In this document: positions 1 through 56,128 of the stretch, in pieces | Layout: each line of letters starts with the position of its first letter | Position numbering within the stretch: the first letter of the stretch is position 1 | Source: a virus | Taxonomy: Duplodnaviria; Heunggongvirae; Uroviricota; Caudoviricetes | Length of the DNA: 64,000 nt | Strand: one strand, 5' to 3' | IMG/VR virus record: IMGVR_UViG_2571042690_000019 | Notes under the pieces: generated by a model | Databases searched by the model: none | What the model was told of the DNA's origin: nothing | What the model saw: the letters and a program-made list of their open reading frames with translations, nothing else | Position numbers and translations under genes: made by a program

Positions 1-1914
1 ATGAGTGAGGCAGAAGCCCGCCCGACTAACTTTATCCGTCAGATCATCGATGAAGATCTGGCCAGTGGTAAGCACACCACAGTACACACCCGTTTCCCGC
101 CGGAGCCGAATGGCTATCTGCATATTGGCCATGCGAAATCTATCTGCCTGAACTTCGGGATCGCCCAGGACTATAAAGGCCAGTGCAACCTGCGTTTCGA
201 CGACACTAACCCGGTAAAAGAAGATATCGAGTATGTCGATTCGATCAAAAACGACGTAGAGTGGTTAGGTTTTCACTGGTCTGGTAACGTCCGTTACTCC
301 TCCGATTATTTTGATCAGCTCCACGCCTATGCGATCGAACTGATCAATAAAGGCCTGGCGTACGTTGATGAACTGACGCCGGAACAGATCCGCGAATACC
401 GCGGCACCTTGACGCAGCCGGGTAAAAACAGCCCGTACCGCGATCGCAGCGTTGAAGAGAACCTGGCGCTGTTCGAGAAAATGCGTACCGGCGGTTTTGA
501 AGAAGGTAAAGCCTGCCTGCGTGCGAAAATCGACATGGCTTCGCCGTTTATCGTGATGCGCGATCCGGTGCTGTACCGCATTAAGTTTGCTGAACACCAC
601 CAGACTGGCAACAAGTGGTGCATCTACCCGATGTACGACTTCACCCACTGCATCAGCGATGCGCTGGAAGGTATTACGCACTCTCTGTGTACGCTTGAGT
701 TCCAGGACAACCGTCGTCTGTACGACTGGGTACTGGACAACATCACCATTCCTGTTCACCCGCGCCAGTACGAATTCTCGCGCCTGAATCTGGAATACAC
801 TGTGATGTCCAAGCGTAAGCTGAACCTGCTAATTAAGTTTGCTGAACACCACCAGACTGGCAACAAGTGGTGCATCTACCCGATGTACGACTTCACCCAC
901 TGCATCAGCGATGCGCTGGAAGGTATTACGCACTCTCTGTGTACGCTTGAGTTCCAGGACAACCGTCGTCTGTACGACTGGGTACTGGACAACATCACCA
1001 TTCCTGTTCACCCGCGCCAGTACGAATTCTCGCGCCTGAATCTGGAATACACTGTGATGTCCAAGCGTAAGCTGAACCTGCTGGTGACCGACAAGCACGT
1101 TGAAGGCTGGGATGACCCGCGTATGCCGACCATTTCTGGTCTGCGTCGTCGTGGTTACACTGCGGCTTCTATTCGTGAGTTCTGCAAACGCATTGGTGTG
1201 ACCAAGCAGGACAACACCATTGAGATGGCGTCACTGGAATCCTGCATCCGTGAAGATCTCAACGAAAATGCGCCGCGCGCAATGGCGGTTATCGATCCGG
1301 TGAAACTGGTTATCGAAAACTACCAGGGCGAAGGCGAAATGGTTACCATGCCGAACCATCCGAATAAACCGGAAATGGGCAGCCGTCAGGTGCCATTTAG
1401 CGGTGAGATTTGGATCGATCGCGCCGATTTCCGCGAAGAAGCTAACAAGCAGTACAAACGTCTGGTGCTGGGTAAAGAAGTGCGTCTGCGTAATGCTTAC
1501 GTCATTAAGGCAGAACGCGTGGAGAAAGATGCCGAAGGCAATATCACCACCATCTTCTGTACTTATGACGCCGACACCTTAAGCAAAGATCCGGCAGATG
1601 GTCGTAAAGTGAAAGGCGTTATTCACTGGGTGAGCGCGGCACATGCGCTGCCGGTTGAAATCCGCCTGTACGATCGTCTGTTCAGCGTGCCGAACCCAGG
1701 TGCTGCGGATGATTTCCTGTCGGTGATTAACCCGGAATCGCTGGTGATCAAACAGGGTTTTGCTGAACCGTCGCTGAAAGAAGCGGTAGCGGGTAAAGCA
1801 TTCCAGTTTGAGCGTGAAGGTTATTTCTGCCTCGACAGCCGCCATTCTACGGCGGAAAAACCGGTATTTAACCGCACCGTTGGGCTGCGTGATACCTGGG
1901 CGAAGTTAGGTTAA
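1..1914 (+). CDS. glnS: glutamine--tRNA ligase (GlnRS) carrying an in-frame 84-codon internal tandem duplication
   Basis: 637-aa ORF; class I aaRS HIGH-type motif (PNGYLHIGH) and VMSKR motif; E. coli GlnRS-like throughout but about 83 aa longer than the canonical ~554 aa because the block IKFAEHH...KRKLNLL occurs twice. Confidence 0.92.
580..1083. repeat. exact tandem duplication, 2 x 252 bp, inside glnS coding sequence
   Basis: nt 580-831 and 832-1083 are identical apart from the junction base; ORF-track peptides 587..787 and 839..1039 are identical. Confidence 0.9.
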
Positions 1915-1937
1915 TAGGTATTTCGCCACATAAAAAA

Positions 1938-1966
1938 GTAAACGCCGCTACTGCGGCGTTTTTTAC
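1938..1966. terminator. bidirectional Rho-independent terminator between glnS and the phage methyltransferase gene
   Basis: CGCCGC-TACT-GCGGCG hairpin flanked by an A-run upstream and T-run downstream. Confidence 0.6.
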
Positions 1967-4257: not shown

Positions 4258-5140
4258 CGGCCTCCACTAGCGAAGTGAACATCGCGGATAATTCAGCAGT
4301 AAACAGGATAAAGTCAGCGTCAAATCGTTGCGCAACATCCTCTCGATCAATATCGTCGTTCTGGTCGTACAATTCGTCGCTGAACGACAAAGCCTTGATA
4401 CTCATATCGTCATTCAGTCTGAAAAATGCACGGTCTTGCCAGTTAACCGCAACTGTGGTTGCAACCTTACCAGCTTCTATATGACTCATGATCTCGTCGG
4501 ATAGCAGGTCCACTTTTTTGCAGCGGACCGCGCCGCCATCATCAAGCAATGCTTTTAAGGTCGCTTCCTCACCGGCACGGAAACCGTTCGGGAAGCCATT
4601 TTTAATCCAGCCAGTGATGGTCAGTTCTAATGGGTCTTTCGGAGAGAAGGGGACAACGGGCAAGCTGCCAAGCGATTTCCGTAACAAAGCCAGCTGATCC
4701 TCTGCTTTTTTAGCACTGCTGGCCTCGACAAAAACCAGATGATTGCTTCGGTCTATCAGGATTTTAGCTACTGATTTTCTCGTGAAAGCGCGAGGAAGAA
4801 GAGAGTGAAGCACTTCATCCTTCAGCGAATCTTTTTCGGTCTTCTTCAGCTTTCTGTCTTGCTCTTCTTCAAGTTTCAGGATTTTTTTCTGTAACTCTTC
4901 TTTGAGTACTTGAGAAGGTAGGATTTTTTCCTCTCGTTTATGCTGCATCAGAAGAAAACCCTGGTATTCATGGGTGAGGTTGTCGCCAAGAACGGGGGTC
5001 CAACCAGCTTTAGCCATATCCTGAGAACCGCATGGGGTAAACACAAACTTGCTAAGGGCTGCATTTACTTCTGCAGTATCCCAGCTAACTTCGCGTGAAA
5101 GACGATAGATGAAGATATTTTTGAAAGCGACTGATCTCAT
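4235..5140 (-). CDS. rdgC: RdgC-like recombination-associated protein (phage homolog)
   Basis: 301 aa, colinear similarity to E. coli RdgC ([60 protein letters not shown]). Confidence 0.88.
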
Positions 5141-8551: not shown

Positions 8552-8854
8552 ATGACCAAAAAAATTAACATAAAGGATTTCAGGGATGCGTGGCTTGATG
8601 ATTTTTTTGAATTTTCAACACCACATAGAAAGATACCTCCTGATATTCATATGACATTGTCACGGAAGTTGGACATTATCAATGCCGCAACTACCTGTAA
8701 GGATTTAAGATCACCACCAGGTAATCGGTATGAGGAACTGTCAGGGAAGCTAAATGGCTATTCATCAGTAAGGGTGAATAAGCAATATAGGTTAATTTTT
8801 AAGTGGGTTAACGGAAAGGCCGAGGACTTGTATCTCGACCCTCACAAATACTAA
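8552..8854 (+). CDS. higB: type II toxin HigB (RelE/ParE superfamily)
   Basis: 100 aa; PPGNRYEELSGKLNGYSSVRVNKQYRLIF matches the HigB killer family; toxin gene precedes antitoxin as in higBA. Confidence 0.82.
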   Translation: MTKKINIKDFRDAWLDDFFEFSTPHRKIPPDIHMTLSRKLDIINAATTCKDLRSPPGNRYEELSGKLNGYSSVRVNKQYRLIFKWVNGKAEDLYLDPHKY

Positions 8855-8924
8855 AACAGATACCCGGTTACGGACCGGGTTCTGACCAGAGTCCACTTAA
8901 TACGCACGCTAGTAAGGGCAAAAA

Positions 8925-9263
8925 ATGAAACAGGCAACCAGAAAACCGACGACCGTAGGTGATATCCTGCTGTACGAATACCTGGAGCCGTTAGAGCTGA
9001 AGATCAACGAGTTAGCAGAAATACTTCATGTTCATCGTAACACCGTAAGCGCTCTTGTTAATAACAATCGTAAGCTAACGATGGATATGGCATATCGCCT
9101 GGCAAAAGCATTCGATACTTCTGTAGATTTTTGGATTAATCTTCAGACCGCAGTAGATCTGTGGGAAGTCGAAAATGATATGCGCGTCCAGGAAGAGTTA
9201 AGTCGTATCAATACTGCTGAAAAATTTATTTCTCAGCGGAACCTGAATAAAAAAGCAGCCTGA
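8925..9263 (+). CDS. higA: type II antitoxin HigA (XRE-family HTH)
   Basis: 112 aa; HTH segment LKINELAEILHVHRNTVSALVNNNRKLTMDMAYRLAKAFDTSVDFWINLQ typical of HigA/VapI. Confidence 0.82.
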   Translation: MKQATRKPTTVGDILLYEYLEPLELKINELAEILHVHRNTVSALVNNNRKLTMDMAYRLAKAFDTSVDFWINLQTAVDLWEVENDMRVQEELSRINTAEKFISQRNLNKKAA

Positions 9264-14106: not shown

Positions 14107-14414
14107 ACACCTTTAACCACGGAGATGCCGTTCCCTGCACGATAGCTGCGGGGAACGGAATTCTCCATCAGGTCACGAATTACTCCCGCCTCATGTAGTT
14201 CCTCTGTTTCCCAGTATCTGTTTGTCACCAGATCCAGGCTGGCTATGACCTTGTGCCGGTCATTCGGCATAGCCAATTTTTCTGCTATAACCATCAGTGA
14301 AAACTCTTCATCCAGTAGGATTTGATACCAGACTTTTGCCAGTTCCAACTCTCTAATGAGGGTGAAGCGCCGCTCAAGTGTGGCGGCAGAATAAGTGAAA
14401 TCTATTTTTTTCAT
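14103..14414 (-). CDS. hypothetical protein
   Basis: 103-aa ORF. Confidence 0.4.
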   Translation of the reverse strand: MKKIDFTYSAATLERRFTLIRELELAKVWYQILLDEEFSLMVIAEKLAMPNDRHKVIASLDLVTNRYWETEELHEAGVIRDLMENSVPRSYRAGNGISVVKGV

Positions 14415-14473
14415 CGTGCGGATAATCCGATTATTTGGCAGTTAAATCCCCGGCGTCGCCGGGGATGCAGCAT

Positions 14474-15652
14474 TTAACTAACAATCCAGTCCATAGCAAT
14501 AACATCCTCTGGAGCTAAATCAATAGCATGGATTTTCCCGTCACGGATGGTGCGCCAGTGCTTTCGTGATCCACCTTCGGGCCACACCCATATACCTTCA
14601 GGCCAGGAAGAACGACGACACACTGTTGCGTATCCAGTCCTGATCTTCTCTCTGACGGTATGTAGTGACAGATTATCCTTTGGGCTTTCAGGCACAGGAT
14701 GGTGGATTGCCTGAAACATCCCCATCTTTGGATGATACCAGCGTTTATTGCGTGGTTCTGCCTCCGACATCACCTGCTTAAAGGCTTTCCGGAAGGGGGC
14801 ACGTGATCCACCTTCGGGCCACACCCATATACCTTCAGGCCAGGAAGAACGACGACACACTGTTGCGTATCCAGTCCTGATCTTCTCTCTGACGGTATGT
14901 AGTGACAGATTATCCTTTGGGCTTTCAGGCACAGGATGGTGGATTGCCTGAAACATCCCCATCTTTGGATGATACCAGCGTTTATTGCGTGGTTCTGCCT
15001 CCGACATCACCTGCTTAAAGGCTTTCCGGAAGGGGGCCAGGGCCACAATGGAACGTCGCGCAAGCAAACCGTCGGGAGTTAAAAACTCATGCGTATCTGT
15101 GGGGATCCGGTAAGCGTTGACCAGGTTGCGGCATTTGGCTTCAGTCAGGCCGCATTTCGCCGCTAACTGGCGATAGCCAATGTAGCCTTCCGGAATATTG
15201 CCTTTCTTTATTTGCTCGACGGTTTCAGCGACTTTGGTCACTTGTGCCGATACTTCGGCTACCTGGGCATTAACGGCGTTGATCCGGCGTTCATGCTCAA
15301 GATGCATTTGCGCCATTTCAGCCAGAATTTCGGCTTTTGATTTTAACTGTACCCGGGCATTCTCCAGTTCGCGCCAGCGGTCCACCAGCCGGGCGGTGAA
15401 TTCGGGAGAGAGCTGCGCGACGACGACAATACTATCGCGCTTGCCTTGCTCGCCTTCGAAGAAATAGGCTTTTGTGTATTTATTAGGGCTAAGTGATTGA
15501 TTATTCTCAACTGTAGCCAATGGCGTATGTTGGATAACTCCTTTAGCAACAAGTCTTTCGATGCTGCGTTTAACATCAGAGTGACGACTTCCCACCAGTT
15601 CCGCGATCTCAATGCTGGTCATTGTCGCTTTTTGAGAGATGGACAGATTCAT
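14474..15652 (-). CDS. phage antirepressor-like protein (Rha/Ant family) fused to a C-terminal domain; contains a 79-codon in-frame tandem duplication
   Basis: N-terminal SIEIAELVGSRHSDVKRSIERL and central region homologous to ORF 54851..55558; C-terminus homologous to separate ORF 54654..54854. Confidence 0.7.
   Translation of the reverse strand: MNLSISQKATMTSIEIAELVGSRHSDVKRSIERLVAKGVIQHTPLATVENNQSLSPNKYTKAYFFEGEQGKRDSIVVVAQLSPEFTARLVDRWRELENARVQLKSKAEILAEMAQMHLEHERRINAVNAQVAEVSAQVTKVAETVEQIKKGNIPEGYIGYRQLAAKCGLTEAKCRNLVNAYRIPTDTHEFLTPDGLLARRSIVALAPFRKAFKQVMSEAEPRNKRWYHPKMGMFQAIHHPVPESPKDNLSLHTVREKIRTGYATVCRRSSWPEGIWVWPEGGSRAPFRKAFKQVMSEAEPRNKRWYHPKMGMFQAIHHPVPESPKDNLSLHTVREKIRTGYATVCRRSSWPEGIWVWPEGGSRKHWRTIRDGKIHAIDLAPEDVIAMDWIVS
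14565..15038. repeat. exact tandem duplication, 2 x 237 bp, inside the antirepressor gene
   Basis: two consecutive identical 237-nt units; peptide APFRKAFKQV...WPEGGSR repeated twice in the ORF. Confidence 0.9.
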
Positions 15653-15867
15653 CAGTGCACCTCCACGCAGTTCATTGGCAGATTCCAGTAATTGAGGATC
15701 TCCATCGCATCAAGAGTGAAGCGAGCAGCAAAAATGCAGGGTTCTTCGGGAAGGTATGAGCGCGCCTCTGCTTCGGTAGCAGCCATTACGCAGATATAAA
15801 GGTGTTTTTGGCAGGAATAGAAACGCCAGATAAATTCAGAATGAGTTGGGGTAGGGATAGTAGCCAT
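15652..15867 (-). CDS. small protein upstream of antirepressor (position of P1 icd)
   Basis: 71 aa, strong AAGGAGG RBS, stop overlaps antirepressor start; paralog of ORF 55558..55782. Confidence 0.55.
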   Translation of the reverse strand: MATIPTPTHSEFIWRFYSCQKHLYICVMAATEAEARSYLPEEPCIFAARFTLDAMEILNYWNLPMNCVEVH

Positions 15868-16183
15868 ATTGGCAGCCTCCTTTGACTAAGTTAAGGAGCT
15901 ACCGCGTGAGGTTCCAATCTCAATGGCGGTAGCACTGACTGGGTTGGAACTACCGGCGTCAAAGGGAACCGGCCTGCCTTTCGGCAGCCCAGCCAGCACT
16001 ACCATTGATCTCTGAGCTAAACGCTAAGTATGGCTGTGCGATGGCATGACACAAAAAAAGACGCGTTCGGCGTCTGTGTCGCCTTTGACATTATCCGGGG
16101 TTCCAATCCCGGCACCCGTTTTTCTAAGGTGCCGTAGAAATATACCCCACGATAATGCCATGGCGCAACAGTCAGTATTTTAT

Positions 16184-40796: not shown

Positions 40797-40872
40797 TGGT
40801 GGCCCCTACCGGACTTGAACCGGTGACCGTGCGATTATGAGTCGCCAGCTCTAACCACTGAGCTAAGGGGCC
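40797..40872 (-). tRNA. tRNA-Ile (anticodon CAU, ileX-like) or tRNA-Met
   Basis: GGCCCCTTAGCTCAGTGGTTAGAGC...CTCATAA...GGTTCAAGTCC...GGGGCCACCA; cloverleaf folds; near-identical to E. coli ileX as recalled. Confidence 0.75.
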
Positions 40873-42561: not shown

Positions 42562-42637
42562 TGGTGCCGATTAACGGACTCGAACCGCTGACATCCTGCT
42601 TACAAGGCAGGCGCTCTACCAACTGAGCTAAACCGGC
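42562..42637 (-). tRNA. tRNA-Thr (anticodon UGU)
   Basis: GCCGGTTTAGCTCAGTTGGTAGAGC...CTTGTAA...GGTTCGAGTCC...CGGCACCA cloverleaf. Confidence 0.8.
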
Positions 42638-42639
42638 AT

Positions 42640-42715
42640 TGGCGATGGTGGATGGATTTGAACCATCGACCCGTTGATTAACAGTCAACCGCTCTAACCG
42701 CTGAGCTACACCATC
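42640..42715 (-). tRNA. tRNA-Asn (anticodon GUU)
   Basis: GATGGTGTAGCTCAGCGGTTAGAGC...CTGTTAA...GGTTCAAATCC...CACCATCGCCA cloverleaf. Confidence 0.8.
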
Positions 42716-54653: not shown

Positions 54654-54854
54654 TCAAGTCACGATCCAATCATTACCGACTATATCAGCCGTCGATAAAT
54701 CAACTTCCCGGATCTGGAGTCCATTAATACAAAACCATCCGGTAGTAGAGTAATTATCAGGCCAGGCCCATACACCAACACTCCATGCTTTACGGCGGCA
54801 CACTTCAGCCTGTCCTTCCCTGATTTTTTTTACCGCCTGCATGATGTCCATCAC
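54654..54854 (-). CDS. small protein homologous to the C-terminal domain of antirepressor 14474..15652
   Basis: CRRKAWSVGVWAWPDN...DWIVT aligns with CRRSSWPEGIWVWPEG...DWIVS. Confidence 0.5.
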   Translation of the reverse strand: MMDIMQAVKKIREGQAEVCRRKAWSVGVWAWPDNYSTTGWFCINGLQIREVDLSTADIVGNDWIVT

Positions 54855-55558
54855 TCACCTCCCCAACCGATCACCTGGAATTGCCCCATTTTGGGGTGAT
54901 ACCAGCGTTTTCCTCGGTGTTCAGCCTCCGACATCATCCGGTTAAAAGAATTCATGAAGGGAGATAAGGCCACGATGGAACGACGCGACAATACCCCCTC
55001 TGGAGTTAAAAACTCATGTGTATCGGTGGGAATCCGGAAAGCGTTAACCAGGTTGCGGCATTTGGCTTCGGTCAGGCCACATTTCGCCGCCAGCTGGCGG
55101 TAGCCAATGTAACCTTCCGGCATATTGCCCTTCTTGATTTGCTCGACGGTTTCAGCGACCTGGCTAACCTTTGACTCAACAGCATGAAGCCGCTTTTGCT
55201 GCTGAACTGCATTTGCAGCCATTGCGGCGATCATCTCTATTTCGGTCAACGGCTGGCGTACTTGTTCTTCCAGTTCGCGCCAGCGGTCCACCAGCCGGGC
55301 AGTAAACTCAGGACAAAGCTGTGCGACTACAATGATACTGTCTCGTTTGCCTTGCTCGTCGCTAAATCGGAACACCTGAATTAATCGAGAACGCCCCATT
55401 ACATCTATTTTTGGTTCATCCTCAATTTGAGGACGAACAATAACGCCGGATTCGGCTAATGTTTCAATGGTACGCTTCACATTGTCATGACGTTTTCCCA
55501 CCAGCTCCGCGATCTCAATGCTGGTCATTGATGGCTTTTCAAGAATGCAGATATCCAT
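54851..55558 (-). CDS. phage antirepressor-like protein (Rha/Ant family)
   Basis: MTSIEIAELVGKRHDNVKRTIETL and central region homologous to 14474..15652; start set at internal Met overlapping upstream stop. Confidence 0.65.
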   Translation of the reverse strand: MDICILEKPSMTSIEIAELVGKRHDNVKRTIETLAESGVIVRPQIEDEPKIDVMGRSRLIQVFRFSDEQGKRDSIIVVAQLCPEFTARLVDRWRELEEQVRQPLTEIEMIAAMAANAVQQQKRLHAVESKVSQVAETVEQIKKGNMPEGYIGYRQLAAKCGLTEAKCRNLVNAFRIPTDTHEFLTPEGVLSRRSIVALSPFMNSFNRMMSEAEHRGKRWYHPKMGQFQVIGWGGE

Positions 55559-55782
55559 CAGTGTGCCTCCGCAATGCCGGGATTGGTAATATTGCGATAC
55601 CAAGGATTAGTGTTTGGTTGTGGGGAAGTAGAGAAACGACCAGTAAGAACACCATGCTGATCAGGGATCAGAGAACGGGCTTCTTTTTCGGTTGCGGCAA
55701 TTGCGAAGTGATCGCAGTGTTTTTGCAGGGAGTGGAAACGCCAGATGAATTCTGGACGTGAGCAAGGATTGGCATTAACCAT
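55558..55782 (-). CDS. small protein upstream of antirepressor (paralog of 15652..15867)
   Basis: shared EFIWRF..S.QKH...AATE.EARS segments. Confidence 0.5.
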   Translation of the reverse strand: MVNANPCSRPEFIWRFHSLQKHCDHFAIAATEKEARSLIPDQHGVLTGRFSTSPQPNTNPWYRNITNPGIAEAH

Positions 55783-56128
55783 AGTTACGGCCTCACTAAC
55801 AGGTTTAACAACCTGCTACCCGCTGTCAAACAGGTGGCAGGACGTGACAGGGTTGACAGACTGGCGTTAGTGAAACCAGCAGGCCGAAGCCTCCCCATCA
55901 CGCCCCACCATAATTCGGGCGTAACGTGGTTTACGGACACAAAAATACCGCAATATCGGAAATCTGCGGTTGTCCGCACTAACATTCAGGCTGTCAAACC
56001 TGGTCGCAGAATTTGCTACGACGGCATGAATATAAGCCTGAAAACATGGAAGATCAACTAAAAATTTCAGCAATGGATGACTTCAGTCGATGATGCAGAT
56101 CATACATTCCGATTTAGAAACAGCAAAT

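What the first reader, a model, noticed from the sequence alone, without database searches (positions are those of the whole stretch)
14474..15652. Second exact in-frame tandem duplication (237 bp) in an antirepressor gene, spanning a domain junction
Units 14565..14801 and 14802..15038 are identical, duplicating 79 residues. In the paralogous module at 54654..55558 the equivalent region is the boundary between the antirepressor and a separate small ORF; here the two are fused in one frame and the duplicated block covers that fusion point. Two exact in-frame duplications of similar size in one window is unusual.
Basis: seen in the sequence. Interest (0 to 1): 0.5.

Follow-up and report, generated by a model that had tools for sequence, protein, structure and literature searches.

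The report
Scaffold-join artefact, not a gene duplication
The "in-frame 237-bp duplication" in this phage-plasmid antirepressor gene is almost certainly an assembly artefact, made when two overlapping contig ends were glued together around a single unknown base (N), so it is not a biological feature.

Summary
The repeat is in the window: 14565..14800 equals 14802..15037 exactly (236 nt). Base 14801 between the copies matches neither flank. The window is E. coli LAU-EC7 draft contig AYNG01000012.1, and in that public record base 14801 is an 'N'. The window shows it as 'a'. The glnS "duplication" has the same form: 251 nt, N at 831, 251 nt.

LAU-EC7 was sequenced with MiSeq 2x250 reads and assembled and scaffolded with the A5 pipeline (IDBA plus SSPACE). 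Both repeated blocks are about one read long or shorter. This is the known false duplication at a contig boundary.

Deleting the N plus one copy gives a 6,942-nt locus with no mismatch to two independent E. coli assemblies. It also gives a 313-aa protein recorded on 86 contigs. The 392-aa form occurs only in LAU-EC7. None of 87 matching complete E. coli genomes showed a match running across the junction.

The glnS join also fuses chromosomal glnS to the plasmid's glnS, so it is a misjoin.

The real gene is an ordinary 313-aa Rha-family antirepressor in a P1-type immI operon (C4 RNA, icd, ant) of a D6-like phage-plasmid.

The parts
14565..14800 (.). Copy 1 of block S (236 nt). It is the end of one assembly contig, or equivalently the only real copy.
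   Evidence: Exact self-match at offset 237. It maps once to relatives, at L001 4266-4501.
14801..14801 (.). Scaffold-join placeholder. It is 'N' in the public record AYNG01000012.1 and shown as 'a' in the window. It corresponds to no real base.
   Evidence: This is the only difference between the window and the record over 7,179 nt. Relatives run pre-S-post with no extra base.
14802..15037 (.). Copy 2 of block S (236 nt). It is the start of the adjoining contig and is redundant with copy 1.
   Evidence: Deleting N plus one S gives no mismatch with L006 or L007.
14474..15652 (-). Antirepressor gene (Rha family) as annotated in the draft: 392 aa, ETE32239.1. The real gene is 313 aa. Codons 206-284 are repeated artefactually as 285-363.
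   Evidence: ORF. Pfam PF09669 Phage_pRha scores 32.1 bits against a cut-off of 29.9. D6 Ant is 313 aa. The exact 313-aa de-duplicated protein is on 86 contigs and the 392-aa form on 1.
15652..15867 (-). icd-like gene (71 aa) immediately upstream of ant. Its stop overlaps the ant start.
   Evidence: ORF. Relatives annotate the collinear gene as 'host cell division inhibitor Icd-like protein'.
15922..16009 (-). C4 antisense RNA gene of the immI operon.
   Evidence: Rfam RF01695, 77.1 bits against a gathering score of 45.
580..1082 (.). A second join of the same kind, in glnS: S' 580-830, N at 831, S' 832-1082. This join is also chimeric, with chromosome on the left and phage-plasmid on the right.
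   Evidence: N at 831. Bases 1-579 are 100% identical to chromosomal glnS. Bases 1083-1962 best match plasmid glnS at 98.9%. The genes upstream in the record are chromosomal.
54654..56035 (-). It holds a 66-aa ORF at 54654-54854, a Rha protein at 54851-55603, an icd-like ORF at 55558-55782, C4 RNA at 55830-55915 and c4-a1b1 targets at 55983-56035.
   Evidence: ORFs, Rfam, protein alignments.

Best explanation
The 237-bp 'tandem duplication' is a false duplication made at a scaffold join. Two assembly contigs of the LAU-EC7 D6-like phage-plasmid ended and began with the same 236 nt, which is a little less than one 250-nt MiSeq read. The scaffolder placed the contigs next to each other without merging the overlap and put a single 'N' between them. 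The window shows that N as 'a'. The N happens to fall on the third base of a four-fold degenerate Arg codon (CGN), and 236+1 is divisible by 3. The ORF therefore reads through and was annotated as a 392-aa protein. The real gene is the ordinary 313-aa Rha-family antirepressor.

Shown here: the S-N-S anatomy, the N in the record, the sequencing and assembly method, the single copy in all relatives, and exact restoration of a known locus on deletion.

Inferred: which software step failed to merge the overlap. SSPACE, as I recall its manual, writes a single 'n' between contigs that are expected to overlap but were not merged. I could not confirm this in the paper library.
For: 1. The junction base 14801 is 'N' in AYNG01000012.1 and is the only difference from the window over 7,179 nt. 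The same holds at 831 in glnS.
2. The self-match at offset 237 is 236 nt, and the junction base equals neither flanking base, so this is not U-U.
3. LAU-EC7 was sequenced with MiSeq paired-end 250-bp reads and assembled with the A5 pipeline into 101 contigs in 77 scaffolds (PMC3931373). A5 stage 3 scaffolds and extends contigs with SSPACE, and stage 5 rescaffolds (PMC3441570).
4. The blocks are 236 and 251 nt, about one read long or shorter. [quoted passage not shown]
5. Deleting N plus one S gives a 6,942-nt locus with 0 mismatches to two independent assemblies, GCA_021915945.1 and GCA_006241035.1.
6. The de-duplicated 313-aa protein is on record on 86 contigs. The 392-aa form is on 1 contig, LAU-EC7. 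Every other listed full-length member of the 153-member cluster is 313 aa, and one member is a 246-aa partial.
7. In every listed plasmid and phage D6 match the record spans 1262-1266 nt against 1499-1501 nt of query (81 E. coli and 88 PLSDB records cover at least 80% of the query), which means a single copy. A junction-spanning query matched 87 complete E. coli genomes. All 12 listed hits are two pieces mapping to the two ends of one S, and their best E-value (2e-27) fits a piece of about 70 nt rather than one spanning 140 nt.
8. The sister join in glnS fuses chromosomal to plasmid sequence. This shows that these S-N-S sites are contig joins and not biology.
9. The window contains no other S-x-S or S-S repeat of meaningful length.
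Against: The raw reads were not available, so single-copy coverage of S and the absence of reads spanning the S-end to S-start junction were not shown directly. I found no reason why a contig should have ended at this spot: there is no exact repeat of 25 nt or more elsewhere in the window. The SSPACE single-'n' behaviour rests on my memory; three literature searches did not yield a citable statement. Both joins being in frame is a mild coincidence, about 1 in 9.
Confidence: 0.95

Rival explanations
1. There is a genuine 237-bp in-frame tandem duplication in the ant gene of the LAU-EC7 phage-plasmid. It would give an antirepressor with a repeated 79-residue linker/C-terminal segment. The N would be just one uncalled base at the novel junction.
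For: The ORF stays open and the period is a multiple of 3. The block spans the joint between two separable modules, a place where a duplication might be tolerated.
Against: The junction, which is the only sequence unique to a duplication, is exactly the base that is not called. The same S-N-S anatomy occurs in glnS, where the join is demonstrably chimeric between chromosome and plasmid. The block lengths track the read length. The 392-aa form was found in no other genome, while the exact single-copy allele is on 86 contigs. 250-nt reads would cover a real junction and it would have been called.
Confidence: 0.03
2. The join is an artefact but chimeric. As in glnS, it would connect two different antirepressor loci, or two co-resident P1/D6-like elements, that share block S. 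The flanks of 14801 would then not be truly adjacent.
For: The glnS join is of this kind. In other plasmids (AR_0118, AR_0128) a 100%-identical S lies in a second, ORF6N-type antirepressor gene about 20 kb away. S-containing repeats within one plasmid therefore exist.
Against: After deleting N plus one S, both flanks together are identical with 0 mismatches over 6,942 nt to two other assemblies and collinear with JS316 and D6. The flanks are therefore true neighbours. Within the window the second module is only about 81% identical and shares no exact match of 25 nt or more.
Confidence: 0.02

Closest known systems
False 'homotype' duplication at a contig boundary: overlapping contig ends scaffolded with a gap between them (described for vertebrate assemblies in PMC8081667 and PMC9516828)
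   Same: There are two exactly identical tandem copies with a gap character between them. The copy length is about one read or less. It arose in a scaffolded short-read draft, and it is absent from independent assemblies of the same sequence.
   Different: This is a bacterial MiSeq/A5 draft rather than a long-read vertebrate assembly. The gap is a single N, which lies inside a codon whose translation is unambiguous, so the artefact passed into a deposited protein record (ETE32239.1) without an X.
P1-type immI immunity operon (c4 antisense RNA, icd, ant) of P1/D6-like phage-plasmids
   Same: The order is C4 RNA (Rfam RF01695), an icd-like ORF and an antirepressor on one strand with overlapping stop and start. 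It is collinear with phage D6 orf82-83. D6-like plasmids are reported to carry ImmI plus a second c4/icd region (PMC6799933).
   Different: The antirepressor here is Rha-family, not the P1 Ant1/Ant2 type. Nothing about this operon is unusual once the artefact is removed.
Genuine in-frame tandem duplications in phage regulatory genes
   Same: The appearance in the sequence is the same: an open frame and an exact repeat.
   Different: A genuine duplication has a sequenced junction and a period equal to the unit length. Here the junction is an N and the period is the unit length plus 1.

Membership tests
Scaffold-join false duplication (overlapping contig ends) | A gap or unknown character sits exactly between the two copies | tested here: met
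   There is an N at window 14801 (and at 831 for glnS) in AYNG01000012.1.
Scaffold-join false duplication (overlapping contig ends) | The copies are identical and no longer than about one read | tested here: met
   The blocks are 236 and 251 nt at 100% identity. The reads were 250-bp MiSeq.
Scaffold-join false duplication (overlapping contig ends) | The assembly was produced with a scaffolding step | tested here: met
   A5 pipeline, with 101 contigs in 77 scaffolds for LAU-EC7. A5 uses SSPACE for extension and scaffolding.
Scaffold-join false duplication (overlapping contig ends) | Removing the gap and one copy restores the sequence seen in independent assemblies | tested here: met
   0 mismatches over 6,942 nt against L006 and L007. 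The exact 313-aa protein is on 86 contigs.
Scaffold-join false duplication (overlapping contig ends) | Read depth over the block is single-copy and no reads span copy end to copy start | not testable with these tools
Genuine tandem duplication | The novel junction is sequenced, and the repeat period equals the unit length (self-match at least one full unit) | tested here: not met
   The self-match is 236 nt at offset 237. The junction base is N and equals neither flank.
Rha-family phage regulator / antirepressor (Pfam PF09669 Phage_pRha) | An N-terminal Phage_pRha domain scoring above the Pfam gathering score | tested here: met
   32.1 bits against a cut-off of 29.9, residues 11-98.
P1-type immI operon | A C4 antisense RNA gene upstream of icd and ant on the same strand | tested here: met
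   RF01695 at 15922-16009 (-), 77.1 bits. The icd-like ORF is at 15652-15867 (-) and ant at 14474-15652 (-).
Tad2-like / DUF2829 (PF11195), considered for the C-terminal ~65 aa of Ant and for the 66-aa ORF | A match to PF11195 above the gathering score (25 bits), or a significant fold match to Tad2 | tested here: inconclusive
   All matches are below threshold: 15.1 bits for the 66-aa ORF, 23.9 bits for relative P0026, and no hit for the Ant C-terminus itself. The AF2 model has pLDDT 66.8, and Foldseek places SPO1 Tad2 (8smg_A) second with E 0.6 and TM 0.44.

The most novel reading that the evidence does not exclude
The LAU-EC7 phage-plasmid really carries a very recent 79-codon in-frame duplication across the joint between the Rha/antirepressor body and its small C-terminal (possibly Tad2-like) module, and the assembler simply failed to call one base at the junction. 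A recent duplication in an immunity-control gene would then be caught before any divergence.
Probability: 0.03. Interest if true: 0.3.

Novelty: not a real feature. Interest (0 to 1): 0.03.

Why it matters
It has no biological significance; its value is as quality control.

1. Single-N scaffold joins in older A5/SSPACE drafts can create exact, in-frame "duplications". These pass into deposited protein records (ETE32239.1 at 392 aa, ETE32223.1 at 637 aa).
2. The window shows N as 'a', so such joins look like clean sequence. Any S-a-S repeat whose period is the unit length plus 1 should be checked against the source record before it is interpreted.
3. The same contig is chimeric at glnS, with chromosome joined to a D6-like phage-plasmid. 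Synteny across window position 831 is therefore not real.

Tried and rejected
1. Codon-level or engineered duplication. Both junction bases are wobble positions of four-fold degenerate codons, which looked designed. I dropped this once the record showed N at both sites.
2. A repeat elsewhere in the window that would explain the contig break. There is no exact match of 25 nt or more between 14400-15200 and the rest of the window.
3. The ORF6N-type paralogue in AR_0118 as the source of the S boundaries. Its homology runs over 14444-15345, not just S, so it does not explain the boundaries.
4. A citable statement of SSPACE's single-'n' rule. Three literature searches found none (with reading). That step rests on my recollection.
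5. The nature of the C-terminal domain. PDB sequence searches found nothing. The word-indexed homologue search found only close relatives. The exhaustive profile search found only 7 representatives. The Pfam Tad2-like hits are all below threshold. The structure model has low confidence and the fold match is not significant.
6. A scan for long A-runs that might be former N-runs found none of 8 or more.

Full report
**Observation**

The window does contain the repeat. Tandem Repeats Finder reports 14565..15037 with period 237, 2.0 copies and 100% matches. It reports a second array at 580..1082 with period 252. The repeat finder gives 14565-14800 equal to 14802-15037. The minus-strand ORF 14474..15652 reads through as 392 aa with a repeated 79-residue block.

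A base-by-base check shows the units are not complete. The self-match at offset 237 is only 236 nt long. Base 14801 ('a') between the copies equals neither the base before copy 1 (14564, 't') nor the base after copy 2 (15038, 'c'). The glnS repeat is built the same way: 251 nt, 'a' at 831, then 251 nt. A true tandem duplication of a 237-nt unit must self-match over at least 237 nt. This anatomy is S-x-S.

**Source of the window**

An exact-sequence look-up finds the 392-aa protein once, as ETE32239.1 of Escherichia coli LAU-EC7, on a 542,286-bp contig. The 637-aa GlnS is ETE32223.1 on the same contig. I fetched that contig, AYNG01000012.1 (assembly GCA_000506465.2), around both genes.

- Over 7,179 nt around ant, the only difference from the window is that 14801 is 'N' in the record.
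- Over the overlap around glnS, the only difference is 'N' at window 831.
- The window therefore shows N as 'a', and both "duplications" are S-N-S.

**How the assembly was made**

The genome announcement states that LAU-EC7 was sequenced with MiSeq paired-end 250-bp reads. All assembly used the A5 pipeline, and LAU-EC7 gave 101 contigs contained in 77 scaffolds (PMC3931373). [quoted passage not shown]

The repeated blocks are 236 and 251 nt, about one read long or shorter. The Vertebrate Genomes Project paper describes this error class. [quoted passage not shown]

From memory of the SSPACE manual, it writes a single 'n' between contigs whose estimated gap is negative and whose overlap it did not merge. 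I could not find a citable statement of this.

**Comparison with relatives**

The locus belongs to a D6-like, P1-related phage-plasmid.

- In every listed match the record span is 1262-1266 nt against 1499-1501 nt of query. That is true of the listed E. coli plasmid records (81 cover at least 80% of the query), the listed PLSDB plasmids (88 cover at least 80%) and phage D6. This means one copy.
- D6 Ant is 313 aa.
- A 140-nt query spanning the junction matched 87 complete E. coli genomes. All 12 listed hits are two pieces mapping to the two ends of one S. The best E-value is 2e-27, which fits a piece of about 70 nt rather than one spanning 140 nt.
- In plasmid JS316 the order is pre (to 4265), S (4266-4501), post (from 4502), with no base corresponding to the N.
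- The protein obtained by deleting one block is on record, residue for residue, on 86 contigs. The 392-aa form is on 1 contig. Every other listed full-length member of the 153-member cluster is 313 aa, and one member is a 246-aa partial.
- Deleting the N and one S from the LAU-EC7 locus gives 6,942 nt with zero mismatches to contigs of two independent assemblies, GCA_021915945.1 and GCA_006241035.1.

The S+N insert is thus the only difference from otherwise identical plasmids.

**The sister join in glnS is a misjoin**

- In the record, the genes upstream of glnS are chromosomal, including a nagE-type PTS gene and others.
- Window 1-579 is 100% identical to chromosomal glnS of many strains.
- Window 1083-1962 best matches the glnS carried by plasmids of about 90-97 kb, at 98.9%.
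- D6-like plasmids are known to carry glnS (PMC6799933).

The contig therefore switches from chromosome to phage-plasmid inside the 251-nt block. This shows that these S-N-S sites are contig joins. By contrast, the ant join connects true neighbours, since both flanks match the identical relatives.

**Why it looked in frame**

236+1 and 251+1 are both divisible by 3, which has a chance of about 1 in 9. Both Ns fall on the third base of four-fold degenerate codons: CGN (Arg) on the minus strand and CTN (Leu) on the plus strand. GenBank could therefore translate through them without an X.

**What is really there**

- A P1-type immI operon on the minus strand, made of three genes. C4 antisense RNA lies at 15922-16009 (RF01695, 77.1 bits). 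An icd-like ORF lies at 15652-15867. A Rha-family antirepressor follows, with PF09669 above its cut-off. Its true length is 313 aa.
- A second immI-type module at 54654-56035, with C4 RNA, c4-a1b1 targets, an icd-like ORF, a 250-aa Rha protein and a 66-aa ORF.
Ant residues 1-237 align to the 250-aa protein at 61% identity. Residues 249-313 align to the separate 66-aa ORF at 40% identity, E 3e-18. The repeated block covers codons 206-284 and spans that joint.
- The fused or split state of this small C-terminal module varies among relatives. Stand-alone 81-83-aa forms exist, and JS316 annotates the Rha part as truncated.

**Side question: what is the small C-terminal module?**

The family is narrow. 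An exhaustive profile search found 7 representatives. Several members give full-length but sub-threshold matches to Pfam Tad2-like (PF11195). The best is 23.9 bits against a cut-off of 25, and the Ant C-terminus itself gives none. An AlphaFold model has mean pLDDT 66.8. Foldseek ranks SPO1 Tad2 second, but not significantly: E 0.6, TM 0.44. This is inconclusive, and I record it only as a lead.

**Verdict**

This is an assembly artefact, a scaffold join of overlapping contig ends around a single N. My confidence is about 0.95. The remaining doubt exists only because the raw reads could not be mapped. It is not a real feature, and the gene beneath it is an ordinary, already-known antirepressor of D6-like phage-plasmids.

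Noticed in passing
window 1..1914 (join at 831): The contig is chimeric inside glnS. Bases 1-830 are chromosomal glnS (100% identical to many chromosomes), and the record upstream holds chromosomal genes. From 832 onward the sequence is the D6-like phage-plasmid's own glnS and plasmid genes. The 637-aa GlnS (ETE32223.1) is an artefact of an S(251)-N-S(251) join.
   Followed up: yes
window 831 and 14801: The window shows the record's 'N' as 'a'. Both positions are the only differences from AYNG01000012.1 over about 19 kb compared. Clean-looking sequence in such windows can hide scaffold gaps.
   Followed up: yes
window 14474..14670 (-) and 54654..54854 (-): The C-terminal ~65 aa of the antirepressor and the separate 66-aa ORF of the second module are homologous. 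They give consistent but sub-threshold matches to Pfam Tad2-like/DUF2829 (Thoeris anti-defence 2). The fold match to SPO1 Tad2 is weak (TM 0.44, E 0.6). A possible anti-defence-like module attached to antirepressors, unproven.
   Followed up: partly
window 14444..15345; L005 (NZ_CP020051.1 33343-34341): In plasmids AR_0118 and AR_0128 the C-terminal two thirds of this ant gene (94% identity over 665 nt; block S 100%) is attached to a different N-terminus. That gene is annotated 'ORF6N domain-containing protein' and sits in the second icd module next to the capsid gene. Antirepressor N- and C-terminal parts are shuffled between the two immI-type modules of D6-like plasmids.
   Followed up: partly
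L001 4406-5116 (NZ_CP058619.1); proteins P0021, P0022: The fused or split state of the antirepressor varies among relatives. JS316 annotates the Rha gene as a pseudogene missing its C-terminus. Stand-alone 81-83-aa proteins equal to the C-terminal module are annotated as 'transcriptional regulator' in other plasmids.
   Followed up: no
window 16054..16132 (-): There is an Rfam isrK (Hfq-binding sRNA) match of 61.3 bits just upstream of the C4 RNA in the first immI module. The second module instead gives a c4-a1b1 target match at 55983-56035. The first module gave no c4-a1b1 hit at the gathering threshold.
   Followed up: no
window 40800..40872, 42565..42637, 42643..42715 (-): There are three tRNA genes on the phage-plasmid, in line with the tRNA cluster reported for D6-like plasmids.
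   Followed up: no
window 8552..9263 (+): A HigB-like toxin / HTH antitoxin pair lies next to the tail/baseplate genes. Pfam hits were seen on the called genes of L004, and JS316 annotates RelE/ParE and HigA in a different place. This suggests the addiction modules sit at variable positions in this plasmid family.
   Followed up: no
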